Shown one piece after another: positions 26,201-45,452 of a DNA stretch of 56,705 nucleotides. A program made the position numbers and the translations under genes. The notes beneath the pieces were generated by a model. It was not told where the DNA came from, searched no databases, and saw only the letters and a list, made by a program, of their open reading frames with translations. How positions within the stretch are numbered: the first letter of the stretch is position 1; the number at the start of each line of letters is the position of its first letter. Source of the DNA: Desulfobacteraceae bacterium (GTDB lineage Bacteria > Desulfobacterota > Desulfobacteria > Desulfobacterales > JAABSP01); contig JAABSZ010000006.1 in NCBI GenBank assembly GCA_011390135.1, positions 1 to 56,705 on the forward strand. Reading direction: 5' to 3'.

Positions 26201-26271
26201 CTCACTTCTCTCTCGTTTAAAAAAGATATCCCGAAGAACGGATACCACATCAGAGGAAAAAGCGCAATGAT

Positions 26272-27183
26272 TCAGATTGGTTCATTAATGGTTTCAAACC
26301 GAAAATCCTTTTCCGCCGCAAGATTGAGCGCCAATCCGAGCTTTTCCTCCGCGATTCCCGCAGCCAGCCCCAGAAGCTGCGGCAGATACAGCACGGAAAT
26401 ATGAAGATCCTCCTCCGCAAGGCGCGATGCCCGATTCTGATAGGCCTCCAGGTTGATCTGGCACATGGGGCAGACGGTCACCAGCAGATCCGCGCCTTTT
26501 GCGGCCTTCAGGATATCCGTGACCAGCGAGATGCCCACTTCAGGGTGGGTATTCATATGGGCTGCGCCGCAGCAGCGGGCCGACAGATTCCAGGGGAAGA
26601 CGTGGGCCCCTGCGGCCCGGATCAGCGGGTTCATTGTTCCGGGGATCTCCGGGTCATCAAAGACCGCATATGGCCGCAGGCATTGGCATCCGTAATAGGG
26701 GGCCACCTGCAGGCCCGAGAGGGGATTTGTGACCGCATGCCCAACGCGGGAAGCGCCGATGTCTTTGGCCAGCACATCCAGCAGATGACGGCTCTGGACT
26801 CCGCCCTTGTATTGCAGATCCTTTTCCGCGAGCACGGCATTGACCCGGGCCCTCAGAGCCGGGTTTCGGGCCGTCTCCGCCTCGGCGCGCTTCAGGTTAA
26901 GATAGCACGCGCTGCAAGGGGACAGGATGTCCCATGCCGCTGTCGATTTCGATGCTTGGGCCGCTGCCTCCGCCTTGGCCAGATTGAGGGCCGGCAGCGC
27001 CAGGGAGAGCAGCTCTCCTTGGGCCGCGGCCGCGCTGGCCCCGCAGCAGTTCCAGTCCGGTATGTCCGTCAGCTCGATTTCCAGAGCGGCCATCAGTGAG
27101 CGGGTGGAGATGTCATACTCTTTGGCCGTGCCCTCCAGAGAGCAGCCGGGATAGTAGAAGTAGCGATGGGTGAAATTCTTCAT
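26272..27183 (-). CDS. hdrB: Heterodisulfide reductase subunit B-like
   Basis: YYPGC, WNCCGA, CSACY, YYGC, CCG, CPMC (two CCG domains). Confidence 0.92.
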   Translation of the reverse strand: MKNFTHRYFYYPGCSLEGTAKEYDISTRSLMAALEIELTDIPDWNCCGASAAAAQGELLSLALPALNLAKAEAAAQASKSTAAWDILSPCSACYLNLKRAEAETARNPALRARVNAVLAEKDLQYKGGVQSRHLLDVLAKDIGASRVGHAVTNPLSGLQVAPYYGCQCLRPYAVFDDPEIPGTMNPLIRAAGAHVFPWNLSARCCGAAHMNTHPEVGISLVTDILKAAKGADLLVTVCPMCQINLEAYQNRASRLAEEDLHISVLYLPQLLGLAAGIAEEKLGLALNLAAEKDFRFETINEPI

Positions 27184-27785
27184 GATGACGCCTCCAGTTC
27201 CCTGGCTTTTTGGAAGATCGGGTCCAGCGCGCCGTTGCCGGCCGAGGGAAATCCGGGCTTAACTTTGCCCTTGGCCATCAGGCGGATGGCAAGAGGCGCG
27301 AAGGAGAATGGCAGAAACGGGTTTTTCATGGACAGAAAAAAGAGGGTCATGAATTCGGTCTCCCGCACTCTTCCGTGGCGGCGGACGCTCTCGAGAAAGC
27401 TGGCGTAGAAGTGGATGTTCTTTTTCGCCTTTTCCGGATAATGGCGGGTCTGGATGCGCTTCAATGCTTGGATGGCGTCTGTGAGCGGCAGGCCCCGGGG
27501 GCAGCGCAGGGTGCAGGTGTAACAGGATGAACAGAGGGTGAAGGTTTTTGTGTTGAAGAGTTCTTCTGCGATCTTTTCATCTTCTCCCATGATGACCATC
27601 CGCCACATGCCGCGGGGAGAGATGTCCATGGCAAAGGCGTTGGGGCAGGAGCCGGTGCAGGTGCCGCACTGGATGCAGGCTTGGATCATTTCTCGGACCG
27701 GGGCGAGGATGTCCGGCGGGTTGGTTGGGGTTTTGTGGACCGAGTGGACAGAGTGGGCTGGGGGATTTTTTTGAGCTGTTTTCAT
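27180..27785 (-). CDS. hdrC: Heterodisulfide reductase subunit C-like
   Basis: CIQCGTCTGSCP and CSSCYTCTLRCPRG; ATG at 27785 overlaps the upstream stop. Confidence 0.9.
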   Translation of the reverse strand: MKTAQKNPPAHSVHSVHKTPTNPPDILAPVREMIQACIQCGTCTGSCPNAFAMDISPRGMWRMVIMGEDEKIAEELFNTKTFTLCSSCYTCTLRCPRGLPLTDAIQALKRIQTRHYPEKAKKNIHFYASFLESVRRHGRVRETEFMTLFFLSMKNPFLPFSFAPLAIRLMAKGKVKPGFPSAGNGALDPIFQKARELEASS

Positions 27786-30700
27786 TGGGCCGCCTCCTCT
27801 TTCTGAGCGGTTCGGCCGGCGCCGTCTTCGGCTTCGGTTGCCGCGTCGATGGCAGCCAGCATTCCGGCCAGGGTGAAGCCCTCGAGTACGGCTGCGCTGT
27901 TGGGGCAGATGGCCGCGCAGGCCCCGCACCCCTGACACATGGCCGGGTGGATGATGATCTGGTCTGTTTCCGGGTTCAGGGTTCGGGCGCCGTAGGGGCA
28001 GGCGTCGATGCACTGGCCGCATCGGGCGCAGTAGGCGTGGCGCACCTTGGCCGTCACCCGGGCCGGGGTCAGATGGGGCCGGCAGAGTATCCGCAGGGCA
28101 CGGTGGGCCGCGGCCTCGGCTGTGGCAATGGTCTCGGGAACCGATCGGGGGGCCTGGGTCAGGCCGCAGGCAAAAATACCCTCCTTCAGGGCATCCACGG
28201 GCCGCCATTTGGCGTCGGCCTCCTGGAAGAAGCCGTTGGTGTCGATCTGGGCGCCGTATCCCGCGGCCAGTTCCGGCGGCAAGTCTGGGGTGATGCCGGT
28301 GGCCAGCACCAGCAGATCGGTTTCGATTTCCAGGGGCCGGCCGATCACCGGCTCATGAACTTTCACGATGAGGCCCGCTTCCGTAAACTCGACTTCGGGC
28401 TTTGCCGTCACCTCGTAGGAGATGAAGATCACTCCGGAACGGCGGGCCCGGGTGTAGTAGGTCTCCAGGAATCCGTAGGCCATCATGTCCCGGTAGAGGA
28501 CATAGACGGCCGTTTCGGGATTCTCCTCCCGGATGCGCAGTGCGTGCTTCAAAGAACCCGCGCAGCAGACCCGGCTGCAGTAATTGCGCGGGGCCTCCCT
28601 GGAGCCGACGCACTGGATCATCACAACAGAGCCGAGCTTTCCGATGTCGATTTCGCCCTTCTTCAGCCGGGTCTCCAGCTCCTTTTGCGTCACCACGGCA
28701 TCGGATGTTCCGTGGCCGTAGGCGGTTGTCTCGGCCTCCCGGCCGCCGGCGGCCAGGATCACCGCGCCATGTTCAAGGGTTTCATGTTTGGGGCTTTCAT
28801 GTTTGGGAGATTCGGGGCAGTCTTCGGCCGTTTCGATCACGCTGACGAAATCTCCGGCCTCGCCGGATGCACCGATAACCGTTGCACGGGTCCGGACCTC
28901 GATTTTCGGATGGGTCGTCACTTTCTCCGACATCTCCTCCAGCAGGGGGCTGAAGGGGTCCCCCTCGATGGTCCGTTCCAGCCAGTTCAGATTGCCCCCG
29001 AGTTTTTCAGAGCGCTCCACCAGATCCACGGGAAAACCGTGATCCGCGATGGCCAGGGCAGCGGTCATCCCCGCTATGCCGCCTCCCACCACCAGCGCAC
29101 GCTGATGGTTCGGAAGGCTCGGTTCCCTTTCCGGTTCCACCCGCTTGAGCCGCTCCGCGGCCATGGTCAGCAGGTGGCGGGGCAGTCCGGCTCCCCGGAT
29201 GTCAACCGCCTCCATATAGATAGGGTCAAGCCCCGTCTCCCGCGCCAGCGCTTTCAGACGCCGGGCATGAATAAAGGGCAGACAGGCCCCCACCAGCACC
29301 CGGTTGGGAGCGGATTCCCTTATTCTCTTGCAGAGCCCATTCCAGCCGGCTTCGGTACAGAGGGCATCAAAGCTTCTCACTTCGGCCACCTCCGGGTCGG
29401 CTTTGAGCCGGGCCGCGGCATCCGGGTTATTCTCCAATGGGTTCGATTCGAAGCAGTTGCAGAGGGCGGCCATGATCCTCGGTGTCTCCGAAGCCACATC
29501 CCGGTATTCTTCTGTTTCGGATACGGCCTCCCCCAGCCCGCCCCCGGTGCTGTGGATGACCCGGGAGGCGCGGTTGGCCGCGGCCCCGGCCCGGATCAGG
29601 GTCTCGTTGATATCCATGATCCCGCCGAAGGAGCCGCCGATAAAGATCCCCTCCCGCTCGGTCCGGGTGAGGGAGAGGGGTTTGGTGGCCATGTATCCCC
29701 ACGGGTTGAGGGGGATGTCGAGCATCTCGGCCATCTCGGCCATGCCGGTCATGGGCCGATGGCCTGCCGAGAGTACGGCCATGTCGAAATGGTCGTCGTG
29801 GCCCACGGATTCGTAGTCCGAATTTCTCACAATCAGGTCGCCTGATTCTTCTTCCCGAAAGATCGAATGGACCCGGGCCCGGCGGAATTTCACGCCCATC
29901 TCCTCGGCCTTGTCCCGATACTGCTGATACGGTTTGCCGTAGGTTCTAAGATCCATGTAGAAGATGGACGCGTCGATCTGCCCCCCGCTCTTCTCTTTTG
30001 CCAGCATGGCCTGCTTGAGCGCGAACATGCAGCAGATGGAGGAGCAGAAATCGGCTTCGATCTGCAGGTTGCGCGATCCGACACACTGCATCCACGCGAT
30101 CCGCTCGACAGGCTTGCCGTCGGCCCGCACCAGGGGCCCGCCGGAAAGGGGGCCCGTGCCGGAAAGGAGCCGCTCGAACTCGATGGCCGTCACCACGTTG
30201 GGAATCACGCCGTGGCCCCACAGATTTCGGCCTTGGGCCGGAGAGAAAAGGCGGGTGCCGCCGCAGAGGACCACCGCGCCCACCAAAAGCTCGTCGGCCG
30301 GGTCCGCGTCCAGATCCCCGTAGATGGAGACGATCCTGGGAATTAGAACGTCCGTCTCAAAGGGCTTGATCAGGTAGTCCAGGGCCCCGATCTTCATGGC
30401 CTCGACCGCGGTATCCACGGCCGCGTATGCGGTCATCATCACCACGCAGATCTCCGGATCGATCTCCTTGGCCCGGCGCAGGGCCTCCACGCCGTCCATC
30501 TCCGGCATCTTGATGTCCAGCAGCATCAGCCGGTACGGCGATTCGGCCTCGGCCATCTTCGTCAGGGCCTCGGGGCCCGAGGCTGCCGTCTCCACACCAA
30601 AGCCCTCCTCTTCGTGGAGCCACTCCTTCAGCGATTCCCGCACGATCTCCTCATCATCCACCACCAGGATGCGGAAGGCCTCCCGGCGCTTCGACATCAG

Positions 30701-31249
30701 GCGGATGGCTCCGGTGGTACAGGCGTCCAGGCAGGCGCCGCACCGGTTGCAGGCGTCGGTGTCGATGACATAGGGGGCGCAGGCCGCGTGGGGCACGGGG
30801 CGGTAGATCGCCTTCCTTTGGCTCAATCCCGCGTTGAAGGCGTCCGGAACCGAGACTGGGCATACTTCCGCGCACGCGCCGCACCCGATGCATCGGGAGG
30901 GGTCCACCAGCGCGGGCCGGCGGCGAAGCGAGGCCGTGAAATTCCCGGCATCGCCCGAAAGCTCCGCCAGCTCCGTTCCCGGCAGGATTTCGATGTTGTC
31001 GTGATAGAAGCCCCGGCGCAGGCACTGCTGGGAGCCGGCGTCCCGATCCATCAGGGGCAGCATCCTGCACATGCCGCACCGGTCCGACGGGAACTGGTGA
31101 TCCAGTTGGGTCAGAATCCCGCCGATGTAGGGGGAGCGGTCGATGAGCGTCACCCGGACCCCGGTCTCGGCCAGATCCAGCGCTGCCCGGATGCCGCCGA
31201 TGCCGGCGCCCACCACCAGGCCCCTTCCGATCTTGGTCGGCAATCTCAT
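27782..31249 (-). CDS. hdrA: Tandem HdrA-like FAD/FeS protein with an internal response-regulator receiver domain
   Basis: Two FAD modules (GAGIGG, GGGIAG), two QCVGSR/CSxxCC motifs and ferredoxin motifs; REC at about 30320-30675. Confidence 0.9.
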   Translation of the reverse strand: MRLPTKIGRGLVVGAGIGGIRAALDLAETGVRVTLIDRSPYIGGILTQLDHQFPSDRCGMCRMLPLMDRDAGSQQCLRRGFYHDNIEILPGTELAELSGDAGNFTASLRRRPALVDPSRCIGCGACAEVCPVSVPDAFNAGLSQRKAIYRPVPHAACAPYVIDTDACNRCGACLDACTTGAIRLMSKRREAFRILVVDDEEIVRESLKEWLHEEEGFGVETAASGPEALTKMAEAESPYRLMLLDIKMPEMDGVEALRRAKEIDPEICVVMMTAYAAVDTAVEAMKIGALDYLIKPFETDVLIPRIVSIYGDLDADPADELLVGAVVLCGGTRLFSPAQGRNLWGHGVIPNVVTAIEFERLLSGTGPLSGGPLVRADGKPVERIAWMQCVGSRNLQIEADFCSSICCMFALKQAMLAKEKSGGQIDASIFYMDLRTYGKPYQQYRDKAEEMGVKFRRARVHSIFREEESGDLIVRNSDYESVGHDDHFDMAVLSAGHRPMTGMAEMAEMLDIPLNPWGYMATKPLSLTRTEREGIFIGGSFGGIMDINETLIRAGAAANRASRVIHSTGGGLGEAVSETEEYRDVASETPRIMAALCNCFESNPLENNPDAAARLKADPEVAEVRSFDALCTEAGWNGLCKRIRESAPNRVLVGACLPFIHARRLKALARETGLDPIYMEAVDIRGAGLPRHLLTMAAERLKRVEPEREPSLPNHQRALVVGGGIAGMTAALAIADHGFPVDLVERSEKLGGNLNWLERTIEGDPFSPLLEEMSEKVTTHPKIEVRTRATVIGASGEAGDFVSVIETAEDCPESPKHESPKHETLEHGAVILAAGGREAETTAYGHGTSDAVVTQKELETRLKKGEIDIGKLGSVVMIQCVGSREAPRNYCSRVCCAGSLKHALRIREENPETAVYVLYRDMMAYGFLETYYTRARRSGVIFISYEVTAKPEVEFTEAGLIVKVHEPVIGRPLEIETDLLVLATGITPDLPPELAAGYGAQIDTNGFFQEADAKWRPVDALKEGIFACGLTQAPRSVPETIATAEAAAHRALRILCRPHLTPARVTAKVRHAYCARCGQCIDACPYGARTLNPETDQIIIHPAMCQGCGACAAICPNSAAVLEGFTLAGMLAAIDAATEAEDGAGRTAQKEEAAQ

Positions 31250-32436
31250 GAGGCCACCTCCTTCCCGGGTTTTGGAATCGGGGCGATGCCCACCACCTCC
31301 GGGAACTCCTTCTCTTTGAAGACGGTCAGAGGCGGGGGCTCGTCAATGCTTCGGCCCGCCTCGTAGTCGAAAGCGGCCTGGGTTCGATGGGCCACGGTTT
31401 TGAATATCTCCATTACCGGGATATCGTTGGGGCAGGCGTTGGTGCATTGGCCGCACCCGACACACGCGGTGCTCATGTGGGCAAGGCGGGTGAGATGGTA
31501 GAAAACGGTATCCGTGGGCAGCTTTACCGCGCCCTTGCGATTGGCCCAGTTCATGTACCGGATCGGCTCATGGTTGAAGACATCGGTGGCAAAAACGCAC
31601 TCCCGGCAGTAGCAGACAGGGCAGGCGACACGGCAGTTGTAGCAGTTGACGCAGGCTGCGAAATGGGCCGCTAGCTGATCCGGATTCGAAAGAATCTGAT
31701 CGGTTTCTGCAAACATCTTGTCCCGATGGGCGATTCTTTTCTCTAACAGCGCGGTCACGGCCTCCCCGGATGGGGGCTCGGCCTCGGGCAGGTTCAATGC
31801 CTTCAGCAGGTTTTCCCCCTTCCCGGTCTGGGCTAGAGCGAAGATTTCCTTTTTGGGGTCTGCGCCGAAGAGGGCGATGCGGATGTCCGCGCCATCGGGT
31901 ACAGGGTGGTCGCAGGATCGGCAGGCCGGGGCGATCTCTGTTCCGTCTATATCGGTTTCTCCCTCCTGGAGAAAGCGGTCCCAGAACCGCCGGGTCAGAT
32001 CCGGGCCGTCATGGCCGGCCAGCCGGCCGTAATCCCGGTTTCCGAACGCGCCGGGACAGTCCAGGCCGATGATCACCAGCTCGTCCATGCTGCCCTGCCG
32101 GAGCTTCACCAGCTCGATGAATGCCCGGATCTCACAGGGTCGCAGCACCGCGGCCACGGTCCTGCCGATGGGCTTTGCCGTGAGCCGGGAGACGAGCCGG
32201 GCTCCGTTCAGGGGAAAGGCGGGGGCCAAAGGATCGACCCTCTCCATCCGGTCCGGGGCCTCATTCGAGCTGTGGATAAGCCCCGGCATGATCCGCACCC
32301 CCGAGGGGAGGCGGCAGGGGGCCAGCAGCGCGTCGATTCCCTCTGCGGATAGAGCAGATCCCAGAAATCCCCGCAGGGCTGCCGGCAGATCCGCGGACGC
32401 GGTTTGGATTTTTGCGGTATATCGTGTTGCGCTCAT
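31246..32436 (-). CDS. FdhB/FrhB-like iron-sulfur subunit
   Basis: LRPCEIRA, IGLDCPG, CVNCYNCRVACPVCYC, CVGCGQCTNACP. Confidence 0.85.
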   Translation of the reverse strand: MSATRYTAKIQTASADLPAALRGFLGSALSAEGIDALLAPCRLPSGVRIMPGLIHSSNEAPDRMERVDPLAPAFPLNGARLVSRLTAKPIGRTVAAVLRPCEIRAFIELVKLRQGSMDELVIIGLDCPGAFGNRDYGRLAGHDGPDLTRRFWDRFLQEGETDIDGTEIAPACRSCDHPVPDGADIRIALFGADPKKEIFALAQTGKGENLLKALNLPEAEPPSGEAVTALLEKRIAHRDKMFAETDQILSNPDQLAAHFAACVNCYNCRVACPVCYCRECVFATDVFNHEPIRYMNWANRKGAVKLPTDTVFYHLTRLAHMSTACVGCGQCTNACPNDIPVMEIFKTVAHRTQAAFDYEAGRSIDEPPPLTVFKEKEFPEVVGIAPIPKPGKEVAS

Positions 32437-32470: not shown

Positions 32471-32890
32471 TTAGATGGCCATCTCCAGGGGCCGGTTGGG
32501 CCCCAGTTCCCGAACCTGGTCCGCCAGCTCCCGCATGATCTGCGCGAACTGGATGCCGTCACTGGCGCCGATCCAGGTAAGCCGCAGCCGCTCCGGGGCC
32601 ACACCGAACCGGGGCAGGATCTCCTTGAGCAGCCGGATGCGCCGCCGGGCCTTGTAATTGCCGTTGATGTAATGGCAGTCGCCGGGATGGCAGCCGCTCA
32701 CCAGCACCGCGTCGGCCCCGTCCATGAAGGCCTTGATCACATACTGGGGATCCACCATGCCGGTACACATCACCCGGATCAGCCGCGTATTGGGCGGATA
32801 GGAGAGCCGGGATGTGCCGGCCAGGTCGGCCGCGGTGTAGGTACACCAGTTGCAGACAAATGCGATGATGAAGGGTTCAAAATCCTGCAT
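32471..32890 (-). CDS. mvhD: MvhD-like 2Fe-2S hydrogenase delta subunit
   Basis: FVCNWCTY, RVMCTG, GCHPGDCHY. Confidence 0.95.
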   Translation of the reverse strand: MQDFEPFIIAFVCNWCTYTAADLAGTSRLSYPPNTRLIRVMCTGMVDPQYVIKAFMDGADAVLVSGCHPGDCHYINGNYKARRRIRLLKEILPRFGVAPERLRLTWIGASDGIQFAQIMRELADQVRELGPNRPLEMAI

Positions 32891-32959
32891 GGCGCCTCCT
32901 TGCGGATCGGATTGTTTCAATGGAATGTTTTGATCTTTTTCAGGCTTCATTTTCATCTA

Positions 32960-35900
32960 TTATCGGCCCACCGCATAGAGCGCGTCCATGATCCCCTCGA
33001 ACTCGGCAAAGACCTGCTCCTTGCGGAAATGGCGAATCCGGGCCGCGCCGCTGGGACATGCCCCCGCGCAGCTTCCGCACCCCTTGCAGACCGCCTCGTT
33101 GACCACGGATATGCCCCGCCGGGCCTCAAAGGTGATGGCTCCGTAGGGGCAGAGCCCCACACACATCTGACACCCCGCGCAGATGTCCGGGTCGATCCAG
33201 GAGATGGCCGACGGAACCGTCACCCGTCCCCGGGTCGCGAGGGAGAGCGCCTTTGCGGCCGCGCCCGATGCCTGGGAGACCGTGTCCGGAATATCCTTGG
33301 GGGACTGGCATGCGCCCGCGATAAAGACCCCGTCCGTTGCGGTGTTGAGGGGGCCCAGCTTGGGATGCTCCTCCAGAAAAAAGCCGTCCGCGCCCTGGTT
33401 CACTCCGAAGATCCGGCCCACGTCGGCCGTCTCCTTCCGTGGCTCCATGGCCGCGCACAGGACAACCATATCGACCGGGATTCGGAGGGTTCGCCCCAAA
33501 AGGGTATCCTCCGCGATGCAGATCAGCTTGCCGGTTTCGGCCGGGGTTCTGGCATGGTCCGTGATCTCGGCCACCTTTCCCCGGATGAAGATGGTTCCCT
33601 CCTCCTGACACCGACGGTAGAACTCCTCATACCCCTCGCCGAAGCAGCGCATGTCGATGTAGAAGTCATACACTTTGGCATGGTGTCCCACCTTCTCCTT
33701 GATGAGATGGGAATACTTTAGGGCATACATGCAGCAGACCCGGGAGCAGTATTCATGATACCGAACGTCCCGGCTGCCGATGCAGTGGAGCAGGGCCACG
33801 CTCCGGGGGGGATGTGAGAATCGCCCGTTTTCATCCCGCATCAGGATCTTGCCGCCGGTGGGGCCTGTGGCGTTGCTCAATCGCTCGAACTCCAGGCTGG
33901 TGAAGACGTTGGAATAGCGGCCGTAGCCGAATGGCTTCATGGGGGTAGGGTCCATCTGGTCGTATCCGGTGGCCAGGATGATGCCGCCCACCTTTACCTC
34001 GTCTCTGGCTTCGACCATGTCATGTTCCACAGCCCTGGCCTCACAGGCGTTCACGCACTCCATGCACTCGCAGCATCCGCCGCAGTTGAGGCATCGCTCT
34101 GCTTCGGCTTTGGCATCGGCCTCGGAAAGGCCCGTATCCGCCTCTGCAAAGGTTCCCGCACGCGCTTCCGGGGCCAGATGGGCCGGAGCCCGGCGGGGGG
34201 ACAGGGGCAGATCCCTGGGGATGGGCAGGTAGTCGAACTCGGCCCCATCGGCTTCGGCTCCGGTTTCACCAGTTGTCTCCGCATCTTCGGCGCCCGGCAT
34301 CCGCGCGGTTCCTGTGGTAAGATACCGGTCCATTGCAGATGCAGCCCGATGGCCCGCGGCCACGGCCGCCACCACGGTCGCCGGCCCGCTCACCGCATCT
34401 CCGCCGGCAAAGAGATAGGGAAGGCCGGTCTGGAGGGTCTCCGGGTCCGTTTCGATCAGACCCCGACGGCTCCAGGCCATCTCCGGAATCTCTTTGGCCC
34501 AGGGCGCGTCGGTTCGCTGGCCGATGGCCGGGATCACCCGGTCGCACCAAAGCACATACTCGGAACCGTCCACCGGCACCGGCCGGCGCCGGCCGCTCTC
34601 ATCGGGCGGCCCCAGCTTATTGACCACGCATTCCAGCCCCGTCACCCGGCCCTCTTCTATCAAAATCCGGACCGGCGCGGTGAGAAAGGCAAATTCGATC
34701 CCCTCCTCCCGTGCGGCTCTGATCTCCTCCGGGTAGGCCGGCATCTCGGCCTCGGAGCGGCGATAGACCAGCGTCACCTTTTCCGCGCCCAGCCGCAGGG
34801 CAACCCGCGCCGCGTCAATGGCCACATTCCCGCCGCCGATAACGGCCGCCGATTTTCCGATCTTTCCGGCCCACGTCTCTTCCCTCAGATTGACCTCCGG
34901 CAGATTGACCTCCCGCAGGAATCGGACTGCGTCCACTACCCCGTCCGCTTGGTCCTCTCCGGGAATATTGAGCCGCAGCGCACCATGGGCCCCGATACCC
35001 ATAAAAACAGCCTCATATCCGGCCTCCTTCAGATTTCCAATAGAGCGATCCGCGCCGAACCGCACCCCGGTCTCGACTTCTATCCCCAGCCGCAGGATCG
35101 CGTCGATCTCCGCATCCAGGATCTCCGGGGGCAGCCGATAGTCCGGAATTCCGGCCCGCAGCATCCCTCCCAGCCGGGGCAGGGCCTCGAAGATCGTCAC
35201 GCGGTATCCCTTCAATCGCAGATCGTGGGCCGCGGTCAGTCCGGCCGGCCCCGAGCCGATCACCGCCACTTTTTTGCCGTTCTCCTCGATCTCAGGAATG
35301 GGCAGGGCCGAAACGTCGATCCGGTCGGCCGCAAACCGCTTCAGCTCCCGGATCGCAATCGGATCATCCACCTCGCTCCGCCGGCAGGCATCCTCGCACG
35401 GATGGGGGCAGACCCGGCCCAGCACCCCGGGAAAAGGGAGCCGCTCCCGGATGATCTCATAGGCCCGCGCGTAGTTGCCGGTCTTCACCATCTGCACATA
35501 CCCCTGCACATTCACCCCTGCGGGACACGCGCCCCGACAGGGGGCCCGATCCCGCTTGTCGATGCAGTAGGTGATGGGCACGGCCTGGGGAAAGGCGCGG
35601 TAGATGGCCTTTCGCTCCCCCAGCCCCTGATCCCATTCGCTGGGAATCGTCACGGGGCAGACCTTGGCGCACTCGCCGCATCCGGTGCATTTAACCCCGT
35701 TCACATACCGGGGCTTCTGCAGGATGGTCGCGATGTAGTTGCCGATATACCCTGAGACATCCGTCACCTCGCTGTAGGCCAGAAGCGTAATGTTCGGGTT
35801 CTGGGCCACCTCCACCATCTTGGGAGTTCCGATGCAGGCAGCGCAGTCCAGGGTGGGAAAGGTCTTGTCGAACTGGAGCATGTGGCCGCCGATGGTGGTA

Positions 35901-36418
35901 TCCTTCTCCACCAGATAGACCCGATGCCCCGAGTTGCCGATATCGAGCGCGGCCTGCATCCCCGCGATGCCGCCGCCCACCACCAGCACATCCGGATGCA
36001 CCGAAACCTCCCGTGTGGAGAGCCGGTCATGGCGCCGCACCCGGCTGATGGCCCCGGCCACCAGGGTCTTGGCCTTGCGTGTGGCTGCGGTCTCATCCAG
36101 CGTCACCCACGAGACCTGCTCCCTCACCGATGCCATCTGAAAGAGATACGGGTTGAGATCGGCCCGCTCGCAGGCCCCCCGGAAGGTCTTTTCATGCAGC
36201 CGGGGCGAACAGGAGGCCACCACCACCCGGTTGAGGCCGTAATTCCTGATATCGGTCTCGATCATCTCCTGCCCCGGGTCCGAGCACATGAACTTATAAT
36301 CCCGCGCCACAGCCACGCCATCCAGCCCGCGCGCGAAGTCCGCAACCTCGGCCACATCGACCTTGTAGGCGATATTGATGCCGCAGTGGCAGATATAAAA
36401 TCCGATTCGGATCGACAT
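32960..36418 (-). CDS. hdrA: HdrA with an inserted GltD/NfnB-like NAD(P)H oxidoreductase module (HdrL-type)
   Basis: CHCGINI, ASCSP, TFPTLDCAAC, HCIGSR; insert with APCRGACP, GRVCPHPCE, GSGPAG, GGGNVAID, EAERCLNC. Confidence 0.92.
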   Translation of the reverse strand: MSIRIGFYICHCGINIAYKVDVAEVADFARGLDGVAVARDYKFMCSDPGQEMIETDIRNYGLNRVVVASCSPRLHEKTFRGACERADLNPYLFQMASVREQVSWVTLDETAATRKAKTLVAGAISRVRRHDRLSTREVSVHPDVLVVGGGIAGMQAALDIGNSGHRVYLVEKDTTIGGHMLQFDKTFPTLDCAACIGTPKMVEVAQNPNITLLAYSEVTDVSGYIGNYIATILQKPRYVNGVKCTGCGECAKVCPVTIPSEWDQGLGERKAIYRAFPQAVPITYCIDKRDRAPCRGACPAGVNVQGYVQMVKTGNYARAYEIIRERLPFPGVLGRVCPHPCEDACRRSEVDDPIAIRELKRFAADRIDVSALPIPEIEENGKKVAVIGSGPAGLTAAHDLRLKGYRVTIFEALPRLGGMLRAGIPDYRLPPEILDAEIDAILRLGIEVETGVRFGADRSIGNLKEAGYEAVFMGIGAHGALRLNIPGEDQADGVVDAVRFLREVNLPEVNLREETWAGKIGKSAAVIGGGNVAIDAARVALRLGAEKVTLVYRRSEAEMPAYPEEIRAAREEGIEFAFLTAPVRILIEEGRVTGLECVVNKLGPPDESGRRRPVPVDGSEYVLWCDRVIPAIGQRTDAPWAKEIPEMAWSRRGLIETDPETLQTGLPYLFAGGDAVSGPATVVAAVAAGHRAASAMDRYLTTGTARMPGAEDAETTGETGAEADGAEFDYLPIPRDLPLSPRRAPAHLAPEARAGTFAEADTGLSEADAKAEAERCLNCGGCCECMECVNACEARAVEHDMVEARDEVKVGGIILATGYDQMDPTPMKPFGYGRYSNVFTSLEFERLSNATGPTGGKILMRDENGRFSHPPRSVALLHCIGSRDVRYHEYCSRVCCMYALKYSHLIKEKVGHHAKVYDFYIDMRCFGEGYEEFYRRCQEEGTIFIRGKVAEITDHARTPAETGKLICIAEDTLLGRTLRIPVDMVVLCAAMEPRKETADVGRIFGVNQGADGFFLEEHPKLGPLNTATDGVFIAGACQSPKDIPDTVSQASGAAAKALSLATRGRVTVPSAISWIDPDICAGCQMCVGLCPYGAITFEARRGISVVNEAVCKGCGSCAGACPSGAARIRHFRKEQVFAEFEGIMDALYAVGR

Positions 36419-36432
36419 GGATTCCTCCTCCC

Positions 36433-36852
36433 TTATCCTGTTGTCCCGCCGGCCAGCTCCGACACGATGGCCAGCAGCTCCGCGGCCTCGGGCGGCTTGT
36501 TCAGAAAGGCCTCGGGCGGTGTCGGCGCACTGTCGGCCTGGGTCTTTTGAATCTTTTCAAAATGGTGATAGGTCTGCCAGTCCACCGAAGAGAGCAGCAC
36601 CACCGGAATCGTGCAAAGCTCCTTATGGCACTTGAGCCTGCGGAACATCACCGCCCCTCCCTGCATGGGCAGCGTGGCATCCAGAATGATCAATGCAGGC
36701 CGAATCCGCTCTGCGGTATCCAGCCCCTCGGCGCCGCTCCCGGCAACCACGGGCTTAAACCCTGCGGATTCCAGCAGCGTGGAGAGGAAGACCTGCATCT
36801 CGAGTTCCTCGTCCACGATCAAGACTGTTTTGTTCCCGGTTTGCGGAGACAC
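36433..36852 (-). CDS. Stand-alone response regulator receiver protein
   Basis: LIVDEE, ILD, LLSS, NKPP; probable GTG start at 36852 with RBS gaggag. Confidence 0.85.
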   Translation of the reverse strand: MSPQTGNKTVLIVDEELEMQVFLSTLLESAGFKPVVAGSGAEGLDTAERIRPALIILDATLPMQGGAVMFRRLKCHKELCTIPVVLLSSVDWQTYHHFEKIQKTQADSAPTPPEAFLNKPPEAAELLAIVSELAGGTTG

Positions 36853-36937
36853 TTTTTGGGCTCCTCTGGGGTTGGGTTGGTTGATCGCGCCTTTGCCCTT
36901 TTCCGGCAGATGGGGGCGCACGCTGTTTTATGAGATA

Positions 36938-36952
36938 GCATAAAGTGTGCCA
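36938..36952 (-). promoter_or_regulatory. Sigma-54 promoter of the hdr operon
   Basis: Minus strand TGGCACACTTTATGC matches TGGCAC-N5-TTGC spacing. Confidence 0.8.
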
Positions 36953-37809: not shown

Positions 37810-39594
37810 TCATCCCTCGATCCCATACCGTTTCATCTTCCGCCACAAAGTGGTCCGATCCATCCCCAGGGCCTTCGCGGTCTGCTCCCGCCGGCCGTCA
37901 TGCTCGCGCAGGGCAGCGATAATCCGCTCCTTTTCTTCGGCTTCTTCGTCTTCCGACTTGCCTCCGGCCCGGTGATGGCCATGATTCCGGGCCGCCATCC
38001 GGTTCATGACCGTCGACGGCAGGTGGCGGGGCTCGATACTATCCTCCTGACAGATGATCAGTGCATGCTCCAGCACATTCTCCAGCTCCCGGACATTGCC
38101 CGGATAGTCGTAGTTGAGCAGCACACCCATGGCCGCTTCCGAGATAGCCGGAGCCCGTTTTTCGCTGGCCGCGCAGAGACGGCGCATGATGTGGCGGATG
38201 AGCAGGGGCAGGTCTCCGGTGCGGTGCTTCAGCAGGGGCAGCTCGAAGTGGAGGACGTTGAGGCGGTAGAAGAGGTCTTCTCTGAACTGGCGACTGGCCA
38301 CGAGCTGATCCAGGCCCCGGTTCGTGGCCGCGATGATCCGCACATCGACCTTTGTGATTCTGCGGCTTCCCAAGGGGTAGAACTCCCGGGCCTCCAGCAC
38401 CCGCAAAAGCTTGGCCTGCAGCGACAGGGGCAGATCCCCGATCTCGTCCAGAAAGATCGTGCCGCGGTCGGCCTCCTGAAAACGACCCGGCTTGTCCCGG
38501 TCTGCGCCCGTGAATGCGCCCTTTACATAGCCGAACAGCTCCGATTCCAGAAGTGTGGCAGGCAGGGCCGCACAGTTGACCTTGATCAAAGACTTCTTGG
38601 ACCGCCGGCCGCAGGAATGGATCGCCTTTGCGACCATGTCCTTGCCCGTGCCCGTGGCCCCTTCGATGAGTACGGTCGCGTCGCTGTCGGCCACTGCCCG
38701 CACCTTTTCGAAGACGGCCTGCATGGCAGGGTCTCTGCCCACGATGTGGTGAAAGGAGAAGCGCTGCTGCATCACCGCGTCCAGGTGGTGTGCGAAGGTC
38801 AGATCTTTGATGGCCGCGATTCCCCCGACGATCTCGTTGGCTTCGTTGCGCAGGGCCATGTAGTCGGCCCGCACCGGTATCACCTCGCCGTCCCGGGTGG
38901 TCATCCGGCCCTTGTGGCTGGTGCGGGAGCGGCCGTCATTCATGGAATCGACCAGCAGATTCAGGTCGTGGATGGCGCCGCCGCCCAGGATCTCCTTGAA
39001 GGGCTTGCCGATCACCTCCCGCCGGTTGTAGCCGGAGATCATCTCCGCGGCCCGGTTGAAGAAGGTGATGTGGCCGCCCCGGTTTGCGGTGAAGACGCCG
39101 ATGTCGAGGTTGTCCAGGATGATCTTGAGGCTCCGCTCCTCGTACCGCACCCGGTTTATGAGGCCGGCGATCGGGGAGTGATCCTGCAGCAGGGTGAGAC
39201 ATCCGATCAGCACCTGGTCCGGGCCGTAGAGGGGCGCAGAAACCCTTGTGACCAGGTGGCGGGAGCGGTTCTGATCCAAAATTTCCACATCCTCATCCAC
39301 CGATTCCAGGCCGTTCTTTCCGCCAAAGGGGCACTGGGCATAGCAGGGAATGCCCTTGAAGACCTCGTGGCAGTCCAGGCCGATCACCGAGGATTCGCTC
39401 ACGCCGATGATGGTCTGCGCGCTCCGGTTGAAGGAGGTGATCCTCCGGGACCGGTCAATGGTGAACGCGCCGATGTCCATCCGATCGAGCAGATCGATCC
39501 ATTCCTGACGCCGGAGGCTCGATTCAGCTTCCGGATGCGCTTCCTTCCCTTTTTTTCGAGGGGTCTTGGACGGACCCTTTGCCGCGTGCCGCAT
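37810..39594 (-). CDS. PAS-PAS sigma-54-dependent transcriptional activator (Fis-type HTH)
   Basis: GATGTGKD, ESELFG, GAFTGA, FLDEIG, PGNVREL, C-terminal HTH; no REC domain. Confidence 0.95.
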   Translation of the reverse strand: MRHAAKGPSKTPRKKGKEAHPEAESSLRRQEWIDLLDRMDIGAFTIDRSRRITSFNRSAQTIIGVSESSVIGLDCHEVFKGIPCYAQCPFGGKNGLESVDEDVEILDQNRSRHLVTRVSAPLYGPDQVLIGCLTLLQDHSPIAGLINRVRYEERSLKIILDNLDIGVFTANRGGHITFFNRAAEMISGYNRREVIGKPFKEILGGGAIHDLNLLVDSMNDGRSRTSHKGRMTTRDGEVIPVRADYMALRNEANEIVGGIAAIKDLTFAHHLDAVMQQRFSFHHIVGRDPAMQAVFEKVRAVADSDATVLIEGATGTGKDMVAKAIHSCGRRSKKSLIKVNCAALPATLLESELFGYVKGAFTGADRDKPGRFQEADRGTIFLDEIGDLPLSLQAKLLRVLEAREFYPLGSRRITKVDVRIIAATNRGLDQLVASRQFREDLFYRLNVLHFELPLLKHRTGDLPLLIRHIMRRLCAASEKRAPAISEAAMGVLLNYDYPGNVRELENVLEHALIICQEDSIEPRHLPSTVMNRMAARNHGHHRAGGKSEDEEAEEKERIIAALREHDGRREQTAKALGMDRTTLWRKMKRYGIEG

Positions 39595-42819: not shown

Positions 42820-42855
42820 ATCCACACCTTAAAAATTGCAGATCCGCAGATTTTT

Positions 42856-45237: not shown

Positions 45238-45286
45238 TTCTACACTTCCCTTTCGATGCAGAGTGCGTGTACAATAAAATTGGAAA

Positions 45287-45301
45287 GCATAAATAATGCC
45301 A
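45287..45301 (-). promoter_or_regulatory. Sigma-54 promoter of the kinase/activator operon
   Basis: Minus strand TGGCATTATTTATGC, 50 bp upstream of the ATG at 45237. Confidence 0.75.
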
Positions 45302-45452
45302 TCGCATGAAATTTGAAATTCAAAGGATTTCAGGTGATTGGAGCGGAAGGGTGAAATCGGGATGTTGCACTCCATTGACAAGAGGGGAAAAGGGAACCAT
45401 TCAAAAAATCGAGACTTTCGGCAAATCAGAAGATCATCAGGATGTTGACCGG

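What the first reader, a model, noticed from the sequence alone, without database searches (positions are those of the whole stretch)
27782..31249. Heterodisulfide reductase A carrying an intact phospho-receiver domain: candidate kinase-switched electron bifurcation
Seen: a complete REC domain (about 30320-30675: ILVVDDE, LLDIKMP, MMTAY, LIKPF) with acidic pocket, phospho-Asp, Thr and Lys intact. It is inserted in frame right after the ferredoxin insert of the first HdrA module. Established: HdrA is the flavin-based electron-bifurcating subunit, and REC domains are allosteric switches set by histidine kinases. Inference: the neighbouring kinases phosphorylate the enzyme itself and gate electron flow post-translationally. 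I know of no characterised example, although such fusions may exist in annotations.
Basis: partly seen in the sequence, partly recalled or inferred. Interest (0 to 1): 0.85.

Follow-up and report, generated by a model that had tools for sequence, protein, structure and literature searches.

The report
Phospho-receiver domain inside HdrA flavoprotein
A large iron-sulfur flavoprotein of sulfate-reducing bacteria, related to the enzyme subunit that splits electron pairs, carries a complete two-component receiver switch next to its low-potential electron exit, so sensor kinases may switch the enzyme itself; the design is widespread but untested.

Summary
ORF 27782-31249 (-) encodes a 1155-aa fused double HdrA. 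A canonical REC domain (aa 194-305, Pfam E 9e-28) sits exactly between HdrA residues 308 and 309 of PDB 5ODC, at the end of the inserted ferredoxin domain.

It is not a chimera. The acidic pocket, phospho-Asp D245, T273, Y292 and K295 are invariant in 121 of 121 relatives. At least 127 of 300 genomes of the same order carry the fusion. On a tree it has essentially one origin.

REC is among the best-conserved parts of the protein, and its output helix alpha4 is almost invariant. The cluster hdrL-mvhD-frhB-like-hdrA(REC)-hdrC-hdrB is conserved in 18-19 of 20 loci. A HAMP-PAS kinase lies directly downstream in at least 62 genomes.

Phosphorylation and gating remain inference. The same kinase/sigma54-activator cassette also occurs elsewhere in this genome without HdrA, so it may mainly control transcription.

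The closest characterised relative by description is BamE, the fused HdrA of class II benzoyl-CoA reductase. My searches found no paper describing the fusion. This scan had already noted the same design on seven other genomes.

Verdict: a real, widespread, uncharacterised new variant; interest 0.7.

The parts
27782..31249 (-). Gene for the 1155-aa fused double HdrA-like flavoprotein with an inserted receiver domain (P0001)
   Evidence: ORF and translation; Pfam and NCBIfam; PDB phmmer against 5odc_A; AF2 model pLDDT 91.8, Foldseek TMt 0.75-0.91 to HdrA chains
30920..31249 (-). Module 1, first part of the thioredoxin-reductase-like FAD domain (aa 1-110): GxGxxG at 14-19 and the Cys pair C58/C61 (C61 aligns with Cys197 of 5ODC HdrA)
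   Evidence: C58 and C61 invariant in 121/121
30683..30919 (-). Inserted ferredoxin domain (aa 111-189) with two CxxCxxCxxxC motifs; in HdrA and BamE this is the low-potential exit
   Evidence: Fer4 hits; the eight Cys are invariant in 121/121; role taken from passages of PMC9012536 and the BamE preprint
30335..30670 (-). Receiver (REC) domain, aa 194-305, with helix alpha5 running on to about aa 314. The phospho-acceptor D245 is the codon at 30515-30517
   Evidence: PF00072 E 9e-28; D198, D199, D245, T273, K295 in 121/121 and Y292 in 121/121; (beta-alpha)5 fold in the AF2 model; alpha4 mean column identity 0.95
29525..30304 (-). Module 1, remainder of the FAD domain (aa 316-575), with cluster Cys C389/C402/C406/C407 and K412
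   Evidence: aligns to 5ODC HdrA 309-512; the Cys invariant in 121/121; K412 in 121/121
29150..29488 (-). HdrA N-terminal-type domain (aa 588-700) of module 2, with Cys C597, C599, C631, C656
   Evidence: aligns to 5ODC HdrA 2-101; the Cys invariant in 121/121
28070..29107 (-). Module 2 FAD domain (aa 715-1060). It has no inserted ferredoxin and no Cys197 equivalent. GxGxxG at 722-727, cluster Cys C880/C891/C895/C896, K901
   Evidence: K901 in 120/121
27875..28069 (-). C-terminal 2x[4Fe-4S] ferredoxin domain (aa 1061-1125)
   Evidence: Fer4_7 at 1074-1118; aligns to 5ODC HdrA 469-638
27180..27803 (-). HdrC-like 2x[4Fe-4S] protein
   Evidence: Fer4_8/Fer4_9; directly downstream of hdrA(REC) in 18 of 20 related loci
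26272..27183 (-). HdrB-like protein with two CCG domains
   Evidence: PF02754, 2 stretches; conserved downstream in 18 of 20 loci
31246..32436 (-). FrhB/FdhB-like iron-sulfur protein; its stop overlaps the hdrA(REC) start codon
   Evidence: FrhB_FdhB_C plus Fer4; conserved upstream in 19 of 20 loci
32471..32956 (-). MvhD-type [2Fe-2S] adaptor
   Evidence: FlpD PF02662 E 5e-54; 19 of 20 loci
32960..36418 (-). HdrL: an HdrA with a GltD/NfnB-like NAD(P)H module inserted at the equivalent hinge
   Evidence: HdrA2 profile 1-300 on aa 4-298 and HdrA profile 291-653 on aa 772-1146; PRK12771 NAD(P)-binding on aa 288-809; 19 of 20 loci
36433..36852 (-). Stand-alone receiver protein (about 139 aa from the GTG at 36852) that keeps Asp, Ser and Lys
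   Evidence: PF00072 E 3e-10; sequence; found upstream of hdrL in 13 of 20 loci
36937..36952 (-). Sigma54-type -24/-12 element TGGCAC-N5-ATGCT in front of the REC-hdrL-...-hdrB genes
   Evidence: one mismatch to the consensus; a similar element upstream of hdrL in 6 of 19 loci. The window-wide count is not above chance
37810..39618 (-). PAS-PAS-sigma54 AAA+ activator with an HTH and no receiver domain
   Evidence: orthologue at 52% identity or more near the operon in 7 of 20 loci
39524..41188 (-). REC-PAS-HisKA-HATPase hybrid kinase
   Evidence: upstream of the operon in 10 of 20 loci
41272..42825 (-). REC-PAS-HATPase kinase-like protein
42856..45582 (-). Membrane HAMP-PAS-HisKA-HATPase sensor kinase. 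The true start is probably near aa 110 of this frame
   Evidence: directly downstream of hdrB or hdrA in 10 of 20 loci and, by hand count, in at least 62 of the 300 genomes searched

Best explanation
P0001 is the flavoprotein subunit of a soluble HdrL-MvhD-FrhB-like-HdrA-HdrCB redox complex of sulfate-reducer-type bacteria. It is a fused pseudo-dimer of two HdrA modules, laid out like BamE. Module 1 keeps the Cys pair C58/C61 and the inserted ferredoxin domain, which is the low-potential exit. Module 2 keeps the N-terminal and C-terminal cluster domains.

Once in the history of this family, a canonical CheY-type receiver was spliced into the hinge where the inserted ferredoxin domain returns to the FAD domain. 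I propose that a kinase encoded in the cluster, most likely the HAMP-PAS kinase that follows the operon in many genomes, phosphorylates D245. The resulting change of the alpha4-beta5-alpha5 face, with alpha5 running straight into the FAD domain, would alter the position or mobility of the ferredoxin arm or the docking of its low-potential partner. Electron flow through the complex would thus be switched after translation, alongside sigma54-dependent control of its synthesis.

Shown: the anatomy, the insertion site, the intact and invariant phospho-site, the conservation, the single origin and the synteny. Inferred: bifurcation by this complex, phosphorylation of D245, which kinase does it, and the effect on the arm. 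Confidence is about 0.5 that phosphorylation controls the enzyme's electron transfer, and about 0.3 for the specific ferredoxin-arm mechanism.
For: REC domain: E 9e-28. The insertion lies exactly between 5ODC HdrA residues 308 and 309. D198, D199, D245, T273, K295 and P296 are invariant in 121/121 relatives, and Y292 in 121/121.

Conservation: mean pairwise identity of REC is 0.77, against 0.68 and 0.66 for the two FAD domains. Within REC, helix alpha4 (0.95), the beta4-alpha4 loop (0.98) and the beta3-alpha3 loop (0.96) are nearly invariant, while alpha2 (0.64) and alpha5 (0.67) vary. That points to a constrained output face.

Distribution: at least 127 of 300 same-order genomes and 7 genomes of other orders in a phylum sample of 401 carry the fusion. 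REC-bearing sequences form one clade, 57 of 58 members, on a tree built without the REC columns.

Synteny: the operon is conserved in 18-19 of 20 loci and a kinase lies within 20 kb in 15 of 20. The HAMP-PAS kinase lies within 3.5 kb downstream on the same strand in at least 62 genomes, and abuts hdrA in about 12 of them (hand count). The cluster's sigma54 activator has no REC and the cluster has no DNA-binding response regulator. The only terminal receivers are therefore HdrA-REC and the small REC protein.

Mechanistic context: in BamE the inserted ferredoxin domain (clusters E5/E6) is the low-potential exit, and a conformational change that shortens E3-E5 from 23 to 12 A promotes that transfer (passages of bioRxiv 10.64898/2026.04.10.717634). 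The same hinge carries a GltD/NfnB-like module in HdrL of this operon and in 1491-aa tandem HdrAs. So it is a permissive site where functional modules are added.
Against: There is no biochemical evidence for phosphorylation, and I found no RNA or protein data for this organism. A paralogous cassette of HAMP-PAS kinase, REC-kinase and PAS-sigma54 activator stands on another contig of the same genome without any HdrA. Kinases of this type occur in about 45 of the 300 genomes in which REC-HdrA was not found with my query (hand count). So the kinase family is not dedicated to HdrA-REC, and the synteny could reflect transcriptional control alone. In 5 of 20 loci no kinase was seen within 20 kb, and in the 8.03-Mb genome G145 the nearest kinase of this type is about 88 kb away. 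I could not measure where REC sits relative to FAD and the clusters, because model coordinates are not exposed. One REC-less member (P0127) nests inside the REC clade, so the enzyme can do without the domain. The protein scores below the NCBIfam HdrA cut-offs (620 against 1100 bits), and its substrates are unknown.
Confidence: 0.5

Rival explanations
1. Phosphorylation of REC does not gate internal electron transfer. Instead it drives assembly: REC-REC dimerisation through alpha4-beta5-alpha5, or recruitment and release of a partner such as the FrhB-like protein, a ferredoxin, DsrC or the small REC protein. This would change which complex forms or where it sits.
For: Alpha4 and the neighbouring loops are nearly invariant. 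Many receivers use this face for dimerisation or partner binding (recalled knowledge of the family). Solved HdrA complexes are dimers of heterotrimers (passages of PMC9012536). REC is more conserved than the catalytic domains, as expected for a binding surface.
Against: No partner has been identified. The fused double HdrA already supplies the HdrA dimer interface within one chain. No experiment has been done.
Confidence: 0.2
2. Information flows the other way, or sideways. The HdrA-like redox body is a sensor, and its REC is a phosphate sink or connector. The redox state of the flavin and clusters would alter REC's phosphorylation half-life or its interaction with the hybrid kinases or the sigma54 activator. 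This would tune transcription of the operon rather than the enzyme's own rate.
For: The cluster holds a multi-kinase relay with two REC-kinase hybrids and a sigma54 activator that lacks a REC. A sigma54-type promoter precedes the operon. The same signalling cassette exists without HdrA elsewhere in the genome, so the relay has an output of its own.
Against: All cluster-binding Cys, both FAD motifs, and the MvhD, HdrB and HdrC partners are conserved as in a working enzyme. In Syntrophobacter fumaroxidans a cluster of the same gene order, HdrABC/HdrL (Sfum_0819-0824), gives abundant proteins when sulfate is present (passages of PMC5947623). That fits a catalyst better than a sensor, but I could not establish that that HdrA carries a REC.
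Confidence: 0.15
3. The REC is a structural pseudo-receiver that is never phosphorylated. It would be a domain recruited as a spacer or docking module for the ferredoxin arm.
For: Receiver-like domains with non-phosphorylation roles exist (recalled). No phosphorylation data exist for this protein.
Against: Every residue needed for phosphoryl transfer and for the switch is invariant in 121/121 sequences that are otherwise only about 55-60% identical to the window protein. Pseudo-receivers usually lose some of these residues (recalled). Kinase genes are syntenic.
Confidence: 0.08
4. The fusion is an assembly or gene-calling artefact.
For: The window comes from a 343-contig metagenome-assembled genome.
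Against: The same architecture appears in 120 of the 120 best database relatives from several sources, including a closed 8.03-Mb Desulfonema magnum chromosome. A second search gave 120 further clusters. It is present in at least 127 of 300 genomes. Contigs of public run X1 bridge both REC junctions, and a run of a second study bridges the C-terminal one. X1 may be the source sample.
Confidence: 0.01

Closest known systems
BamE, the fused-HdrA subunit of class II benzoyl-CoA reductase of Geobacter metallireducens (bioRxiv 10.64898/2026.04.10.717634; passages read)
   Same: One chain holds two HdrA-like thioredoxin-reductase modules with permuted accessory domains. The first module carries a Cys pair at positions 59/62 (C58/C61 here) and an inserted ferredoxin domain that is the low-potential exit. 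Both work with an MvhD-type adaptor and an HdrBC-like high-potential module. A second bifurcation-type module is coupled in the same system: BamGHI there, HdrL here.
   Different: BamE is described without any receiver domain. Its second FAD site has Gln768, whereas module 2 here keeps Lys (K901, 120/121), if the positions are equivalent. No BamB/BamC tungsten module is encoded near P0001. I could not compare sequences or coordinates, because BamE was not in the PDB copies searched and none of the 10 REC-less relatives I looked up by name carries that name.
HdrA of methanogen HdrABC-MvhAGD and related complexes (PDB 5ODC, 8RVY/8RVU, 7BKB/7BKD, 9SFI)
   Same: Fold and cofactor motifs match (phmmer E 5e-107; Foldseek TMt 0.75-0.91). 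It has the FAD domain, the CxGSRD...CSxxCC cluster motif, the inserted and C-terminal ferredoxin domains and the N-terminal cluster domain, and it has MvhD, HdrB and HdrC neighbours.
   Different: Here there are two modules in one chain with complementary domain loss, and a REC is inserted between residues 308 and 309. The protein scores below the NCBIfam HdrA and HdrA2 cut-offs. The host is bacterial, so CoM-S-S-CoB is unlikely to be the substrate (inference).
Fused or tandem HdrA of ANME archaea (HdrA3/4) and of the Moorella MetFV-HdrABC-MvhD complex (PMC9012536; passages read)
   Same: Complementary presence and absence of the N-terminal cluster domain and of Cys197 in the two halves, which implies an obligate asymmetric pseudo-dimer.
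   Different: The order of the halves is reversed: here the Cys197-bearing half comes first. No receiver is reported in those proteins.
HdrABC/HdrL cluster of Syntrophobacter fumaroxidans (Sfum_0819-0824; PMC5947623, passages) and locus VIII of Desulfobacterium autotrophicum HRM2 (PMC2702500, passages)
   Same: Same gene set and order: hdrL, mvhD, an FdhB/FrhB-like FeS protein, and hdrA with hdrB and hdrC. The HRM2 figure legend lists a response regulator, a histidine kinase and a CheY-like regulator among neighbouring genes. The S. fumaroxidans proteins were detected only when sulfate was present.
   Different: The passages I read in neither paper mention a receiver domain inside HdrA. I could not check whether those HdrA proteins carry one.
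Response regulators with enzymatic outputs, such as CheB, PleD/WspR and RpfG (recalled, no call)
   Same: A CheY-type receiver controls an enzyme in the same polypeptide through its alpha4-beta5-alpha5 face.
   Different: In those proteins REC is N-terminal and the outputs are signalling enzymes. Here REC is an internal insertion in a multi-cofactor redox enzyme of energy metabolism.

Membership tests
CheY-like receiver domain (Pfam PF00072) | Profile match above the curated cut-off | tested here: met
   97.1 bits against 30.2, E 9e-28, profile positions 1-109 of 111
CheY-like receiver domain (Pfam PF00072) | Acidic pocket, phospho-acceptor Asp, Thr/Ser, aromatic switch residue and Lys | tested here: met
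   D198, D199, D245, T273 and K295 invariant in 121/121; Y292 invariant in 121/121
CheY-like receiver domain (Pfam PF00072) | (beta-alpha)5 fold | tested here: met
   AF2 model: b1 193-197, a1 201-214, b2 218-222, a2 225-234, b3 241-245, a3 253-263, b4 268-273, a4 278-287, b5 289-294, a5 299-314; block pLDDT 87-98
CheY-like receiver domain (Pfam PF00072) | Phosphorylation of the Asp by a histidine kinase or a small phosphodonor | not testable with these tools
   Needs biochemistry. Only synteny with kinases is available
HdrA (heterodisulfide reductase subunit A) | Thioredoxin-reductase-like FAD domain with GxGxxG and the [4Fe-4S] Cys motif | tested here: met
   Present in both modules: G14-G19 with C389/402/406/407, and G722-G727 with C880/891/895/896; Foldseek TMt up to 0.91 to HdrA
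HdrA (heterodisulfide reductase subunit A) | All four domains (N-terminal cluster domain, FAD domain, inserted ferredoxin, C-terminal ferredoxin) in each protomer | tested here: not met
   The domains are split between the two modules: the inserted ferredoxin is only in module 1, and the N- and C-terminal domains only in module 2
HdrA (heterodisulfide reductase subunit A) | NCBIfam equivalog score for CoB-CoM HdrA or HdrA2 | tested here: not met
   620 bits against a cut-off of 1100 (HdrA2); 519 against 1400 (HdrA)
HdrA (heterodisulfide reductase subunit A) | Encoded with HdrB (CCG domains), HdrC and MvhD | tested here: met
   conserved in 18-19 of 20 loci
HdrA (heterodisulfide reductase subunit A) | Flavin-based electron bifurcation and heterodisulfide reduction | not testable with these tools
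   K412, which aligns with the Lys following the CCM motif of 5ODC HdrA, is invariant in 121/121. Activity and substrates are unknown
BamE-type fused HdrA dimer | Two TrxR-like modules in one chain, the first carrying the Cys pair near residue 60 and the inserted ferredoxin domain | tested here: met
   C58/C61 and the ferredoxin at aa 111-189 in module 1, second module from aa 715. Compared with the preprint's description only
BamE-type fused HdrA dimer | Second FAD site non-bifurcating (Gln in place of Lys) | tested here: inconclusive
   Module 2 keeps Lys K901 in 120/121, but equivalence to BamE Gln768 could not be checked without the BamE sequence
BamE-type fused HdrA dimer | Encoded with the BamB/BamC tungsten aromatic-ring reductase module | tested here: not met
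   No AOR-family gene among the operon's neighbours. It therefore works like BamE but is not an orthologue of it

The most novel reading that the evidence does not exclude
A two-component phosphorelay acts directly on a flavin-based electron-bifurcating enzyme. Phosphorylation of a receiver spliced into the hinge of the low-potential ferredoxin arm would open or close that branch. Sulfate reducers could then re-route electrons between NAD(P)H, ferredoxin and a disulfide acceptor within seconds, without new protein synthesis. This would be the first post-translational switch described for this enzyme class.
Probability: 0.4. Interest if true: 0.85.

Novelty: new variant of a known kind. Interest (0 to 1): 0.7.

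Why it matters
Flavin-based electron bifurcation sets the energy budget of anaerobes living near the thermodynamic limit. As far as I recall, its regulation is known only at the level of gene expression and of conformational gating intrinsic to the enzyme. A receiver domain built into the arm that delivers the low-potential electron would be an external, signal-controlled gate on that step.

The design is present in roughly four of ten species-level genomes of an abundant order of marine sulfate reducers, and in cultured strains such as Desulfonema magnum. It is therefore experimentally reachable and ecologically relevant.

It also shows that the hinge after the inserted ferredoxin domain of HdrA is a place where evolution adds modules: REC here, an NAD(P)H module in HdrL. 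That is useful for understanding and engineering these complexes.

Tried and rejected
Complex prediction. I sent REC (aa 190-315) against aa 1-189 and aa 316-715. The verdict was 'no answer' (score 0.01, mark 0.32). It is not used for or against anything.

RNA evidence. No RNA holder was listed among the 8 runs found.

Reads. Logan contigs are short. They only show that contigs bridge the REC junctions.

The search for related loci in genome contigs. One back-translated pattern lay in the REC, so 70 of the 80 kept loci matched only a REC segment. Ten matched most of the protein.

Sigma54 pattern. The window-wide count (11 hits with up to 2 mismatches) is below the shuffled mean of 22. Only the position of the single 1-mismatch site is suggestive.

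BamE by name. None of the 10 REC-less relatives I looked up is named BamE. The REC-less tandem HdrA paralogue in this genome (C303) is not in a Bam cluster; it has MvhD, FeS, HdrD-like and NrfD neighbours.

Syntrophobacter fumaroxidans. It was not among the named proteins in the best 120 relatives of a Syntrophobacterales orthologue. Whether its HdrABC/HdrL HdrA has a REC stays open.

Papers. Pereira et al. 2011 is not held. One search call failed on term length, and its replacement gave nothing relevant. The search for Desulfonema magnum plus Hdr gave nothing relevant.

Model coordinates are not exposed, so REC-to-cofactor distances could not be measured.

The chimera reading is rejected (see rival explanations).

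Full report
WHAT IS THERE. The minus-strand ORF 27782-31249 is open for 1155 aa. Pfam finds a response-regulator receiver at aa 194-305 (E 9e-28, 97.1 bits against a cut-off of 30.2). It also finds two FAD/NAD(P)-binding Rossmann starts (aa 11-48 and 718-756), a 2x[4Fe-4S] ferredoxin at aa 114-190 and another at aa 1067-1118. NCBIfam's best models are HdrA2 and HdrA, matched in four stretches, but below their cut-offs (620 against 1100 bits; 519 against 1400). The REC corresponds to window 30335-30670.

WHERE THE RECEIVER SITS. phmmer against all PDB chains aligns query 9-182 to residues 145-308 of HdrA from Methanothermococcus thermolithotrophicus (5odc_A), and query 312-514 to residues 309-512. 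REC is thus a clean insertion between two consecutive HdrA residues, at the point where the inserted ferredoxin domain returns to the FAD domain. Query 588-686 aligns to the HdrA N-terminal cluster domain (residues 2-101), and query 960-1126 to HdrA 469-638, which includes the C-terminal ferredoxin domain. The protein is therefore a fusion of two HdrA modules with complementary domains. Module 1 has the Cys pair C58/C61 and the inserted ferredoxin, but no N- or C-terminal domain; C61 aligns with Cys197. Module 2 has the N-terminal-type domain and the C-terminal ferredoxin, but no inserted ferredoxin and no Cys197 equivalent.

An AlphaFold2 model built on a 130-sequence alignment is confident (mean pLDDT 91.8, pTM 0.92). 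It gives a textbook (beta-alpha)5 receiver at aa 193-314, joined by less confident linkers (block pLDDT 80 before it and 75 after it). Foldseek matches the model to HdrA chains of 8RVY, 5ODC and 7BKD with TMt 0.75-0.91. Model coordinates are not exposed, so I could not measure how REC lies relative to FAD and the clusters.

NOT A CHIMERA, NOT UNIQUE. The best 120 database relatives are 1129-1177 aa long, 53-96% identical over 97-100% of the query, and come from NCBI, JGI, ENA and Logan. Sources call them 'response regulator', 'heterodisulfide reductase subunit A' or 'FAD-dependent oxidoreductase'. One is from the closed 8.03-Mb chromosome of Desulfonema magnum. In a MAFFT alignment of the window protein with these 120, several residues are invariant in 121/121: D198, D199, D245, T273, Y275, K295 and P296, and all cluster-binding Cys. 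Y292, the aromatic switch position, and K412 are also 121/121, and K901 is 120/121. A second search, started from a Syntrophobacterales orthologue, listed 120 further clusters, all with PF00072.

Among 300 genomes drawn evenly from the window's order, 288 have some HdrA-like match at E <= 1e-100. By my hand count of the 150 listed rows, 104 genomes have one alignment of 1000 bits or more that runs through the REC. A further 23 have a shorter alignment that runs through it, in frames of about 1130-1270 aa. That makes at least 127 of 300. Six more rows at 52-59% identity are cut by contig ends, and 421 rows were not listed. In a phylum-wide sample of 401 genomes, a 321-aa probe spanning ferredoxin, REC and FAD domain matched end to end in 11: the window's genome, 3 of its order and 7 of other orders. 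Contigs of public run X1 bridge both REC junctions, and a run from a second study bridges the C-terminal one. X1 may be the source sample, so this adds little.

EVOLUTION. In a library of 1.84 billion cluster representatives there are 1738 proteins at E <= 1e-30. The top ranks hold REC-bearing forms of about 1140-1175 aa. Below them come about 1000-1040-aa tandem HdrAs in which query 314-1138 follows directly after about 187 residues, so they have no REC. Forms of about 1480-1530 aa also appear. Pfam shows that P0127 (1021 aa) has nothing at the site. P0162 (1491 aa) has a GltD/NfnB-like NAD(P)H module there.

The HdrL encoded three genes upstream in this very operon also has its GltD-like module (aa 288-809) between HdrA profile positions of about 300 and 291-309. 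That is the same hinge. On a FastTree tree of 130 sequences built with the REC columns removed, the 57 REC-bearing sequences lie in one clade of 58. The label needs two changes, against a shuffled mean of 42.7, with 0 of 500 shuffles as low. The exception is REC-less P0127, nested beside P0125. This fits one gain and one loss. Support is SH-like only, and the root is not inferred.

THE RECEIVER IS UNDER STRONG CONSTRAINT. Mean pairwise identity over 400 random pairs of the 121 sequences is 0.77 for REC. The other domains score 0.68 (FAD domain 1, second part), 0.66 (FAD domain 2), 0.70 (inserted ferredoxin) and 0.73 (C-terminal ferredoxin). Only the first 110 residues are higher, at 0.83.

Within REC I used 129 sequences and the secondary structure of the model. 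Mean column identity is 0.95 for alpha4, 0.98 for the beta4-alpha4 loop, 0.96 for the beta3-alpha3 loop and 0.79 for alpha1. It is 0.64 for alpha2 and 0.67 for alpha5. From recalled knowledge of the family, alpha1 with the beta5-alpha5 loop is the kinase-docking side, and alpha4-beta5-alpha5 is the face that changes on phosphorylation. A nearly invariant alpha4 is unusual for receivers and suggests a fixed interaction surface.

SURROUNDINGS. All on the minus strand, in order, the window encodes:
- a HAMP-PAS-HisKA-HATPase membrane kinase (42856-45582)
- a REC-PAS-HATPase protein (41272-42825)
- a REC-PAS-HisKA-HATPase kinase (39524-41188)
- a PAS-PAS-sigma54-HTH activator without a receiver (37810-39618)
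- a small stand-alone receiver (36433-36852)
- HdrL (32960-36418)
- MvhD (32471-32956)
- an FrhB/FdhB-like FeS protein (31246-32436)
- HdrA(REC)
- an HdrC-like protein (27180-27803)
- an HdrB-like protein (26272-27183)
- a 2Fe-2S/nucleotidyl-cyclase fusion (25280-26248)
.

A sigma54-type -24/-12 element with one mismatch lies at 36937-36952, just upstream of the small receiver gene. A similar element lies upstream of hdrL in 6 of 19 related loci. The window-wide count of such matches is not above chance.

I fetched 20-kb stretches around the orthologue from 20 genomes of about 19 families and mapped the window's proteins on them with tblastn. The results were:
- hdrL (or an hdrA-like gene), mvhD and the frhB-like gene directly upstream: 19 of 20.
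- hdrC and hdrB directly downstream: 18 of 20.
- the small receiver upstream of hdrL: 13 of 20.
- the REC-PAS kinase upstream: 10 of 20.
- the PAS-sigma54 activator at 52% identity or more: 7 of 20.
- the HAMP-PAS kinase (51-60% identity) immediately after hdrB or hdrA: 10 of 20.
- any kinase within the stretch: 15 of 20.
- the cyclase fusion: at most 1 of 20.

I then searched the sensor part of the HAMP-PAS kinase in the same 300 genomes. It gave matches in 192 of 300 at E <= 1e-30. Comparing the listed coordinates by hand, at least 62 genomes have this kinase within 3.5 kb downstream of hdrA(REC) on the same strand. In about 12 of them it abuts hdrA with no hdrCB between. In 7 more it lies 6-11 kb away.

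Against a dedicated pairing, about 45 genomes (hand count) have such a kinase where my query found no REC-HdrA, and many genomes have two copies. The second copy in the window's own genome (contig C279) heads a cassette of HAMP-PAS kinase, REC-HATPase protein and PAS-sigma54 activator, with no HdrA on the 7-kb contig. The kinases and activator therefore form a signalling module with a life of its own, and its association with the hdr operon may serve transcription. The cluster still contains no DNA-binding response regulator. Its only receivers that are not part of kinases are HdrA-REC and the small REC protein.

WHAT THE ENZYME IS LIKE. From passages of Chadwick et al. [quoted passage not shown] The cluster of the N-terminal domain takes Cys197 from the partner protomer. 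Fused or tandem HdrAs show complementary loss of Cys197 and the N-terminal domain. P0001 shows the same complementarity with the halves in the opposite order.

From passages of the 2026 preprint on class II benzoyl-CoA reductase (bioRxiv 10.64898/2026.04.10.717634): BamE is a fused HdrA dimer in which the first module binds the bifurcating FAD, with Lys280 at N5. The second FAD (Gln768) is judged non-bifurcating. A Cys59-Cys62 pair forms a disulfide in one state. The inserted ferredoxin domain (clusters E5/E6) feeds the low-potential output module. A conformational change shortens E3-E5 from 23 to 12 A.

P0001 has C58/C61 at the matching positions and the same layout, so BamE is the closest characterised relative by description. 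It is not an orthologue, because there is no BamB/C module nearby. Module 2 here also keeps Lys where BamE may have Gln, but that equivalence is untested.

The operon itself has been seen before. It appears as HdrABC/HdrL (Sfum_0819-0824) in Syntrophobacter fumaroxidans, whose proteins were detected only when sulfate was present and were proposed to reduce DsrC (PMC5947623, passages). It also appears as locus VIII of Desulfobacterium autotrophicum HRM2 (PMC2702500, passages). Neither set of passages mentions a receiver in HdrA, and I could not check those proteins. Supplements are closed.

HOW IT MOST LIKELY WORKS. The following is inference. In the CheY fold, the start of beta1 and the end of alpha5 lie together, opposite the phosphorylation site (recalled). 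A receiver can therefore be inserted into a loop with its active site exposed to a kinase, and with alpha5 leading back into the host domain. Here alpha5 (aa 299-314) runs into the first strand of the FAD domain (aa 319-323). Phosphorylation of D245 would re-set T273, Y292 and the alpha4-beta5-alpha5 face. At this hinge, that could change the position or freedom of the ferredoxin arm that carries the low-potential electron, or the docking of its acceptor.

I put about 0.5 on phosphorylation controlling the enzyme's electron transfer, and about 0.3 on this specific arm mechanism. The rivals are phosphorylation-dependent assembly or partner recruitment (0.2), a sensing or phosphate-sink role that feeds the relay and the sigma54 activator (0.15), an unphosphorylated structural domain (0.08) and an artefact (0.01).

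IS IT KNOWN? I ran five full-text searches on this point: HdrA + 'receiver domain'; HdrA + 'response regulator' + Desulfobacter; HdrA + CheY; 'heterodisulfide reductase' + 'response regulator receiver'; 'receiver domain' + 'electron bifurcat'. None found a paper that describes the fusion. The library lacks most subscription journals, and supplements were closed. Database annotations do show the fusion; UniRef, for example, names the D. magnum protein a response-regulator-domain protein with an FAD/NAD(P)-binding domain.

This scan had already noted the same design on seven other genomes. Those notes gave me the BamE and fused-HdrA leads, which I checked in the papers. New here, as far as those notes show, are:
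- the residue-level conservation map of REC;
- the shared insertion hinge with HdrL;
- the single-clade tree;
- the counts of kinase adjacency;
- the finding that the kinase/activator cassette also exists without HdrA.

VERDICT. The finding is real, widespread and uncharacterised. It is a new variant that combines two known kinds, a receiver-controlled enzyme and a fused HdrA. The mechanism is plausible, with good comparative support, but it is untested and has a serious transcription-only alternative for the neighbouring kinases. Interest 0.7.

Noticed in passing
window 25280-26248 (-): The gene directly after hdrB encodes a 2Fe-2S ferredoxin domain fused to a class III adenylate/guanylate cyclase domain (Fer2 E 2.5e-11, Guanylate_cyc E 2.4e-22). 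It could be a redox-sensing nucleotide cyclase. It is not part of the conserved cluster: at most 1 weak partial hit in 20 related loci.
   Followed up: partly
G000 contig C279 (L115 432-5647, minus strand): A paralogous signalling cassette: a HAMP-PAS-PAS-HisKA-HATPase kinase (59% identical to the window's kinase in the sensor part), a REC-HATPase protein and a PAS-sigma54-HTH activator, with no HdrA on the 7-kb contig.
   Followed up: partly
G000 contig C303 (L113 8742-11843, +): A REC-less tandem HdrA paralogue (1033-aa frame with two in-frame TGA, probably selenocysteine). It is followed by an MvhD-type gene and FeS proteins, with an HdrD-like CCG protein and an NrfD-like membrane protein nearby. 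It is not a Bam cluster.
   Followed up: partly
related genomes, rows (e.g. G271:C70, G129:C79, G243:C2): Several orthologues of the REC-bearing HdrA have one or two in-frame TGA codons inside otherwise full-length matches. They are possibly selenocysteine variants. The positions were not examined.
   Followed up: no
window 37211-37744 (-): The 177-aa ORF between the sigma54 activator and the small receiver has no family match and an odd composition, and none of 20 related loci matches it. It is probably not a gene. The roughly 860-bp gap that holds it also holds the sigma54-type promoter.
   Followed up: partly
L095 (G045:C26), upstream of its hdrA(REC): The HdrL counterpart matches only aa 1-287 and 784-1150 of the window's HdrL. 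It lacks the GltD/NfnB-like insert and looks like a plain HdrA.
   Followed up: no
window 45666-48539 (+): A dCache-HisKA-HATPase-REC hybrid kinase is transcribed divergently from the HAMP-PAS kinase. An OmpR-type kinase/regulator pair lies at 19629-22393. The window is unusually rich in two-component genes, and the whole 4.1-Mb genome gave 152 matches to the query, most of them to its REC part.
   Followed up: no
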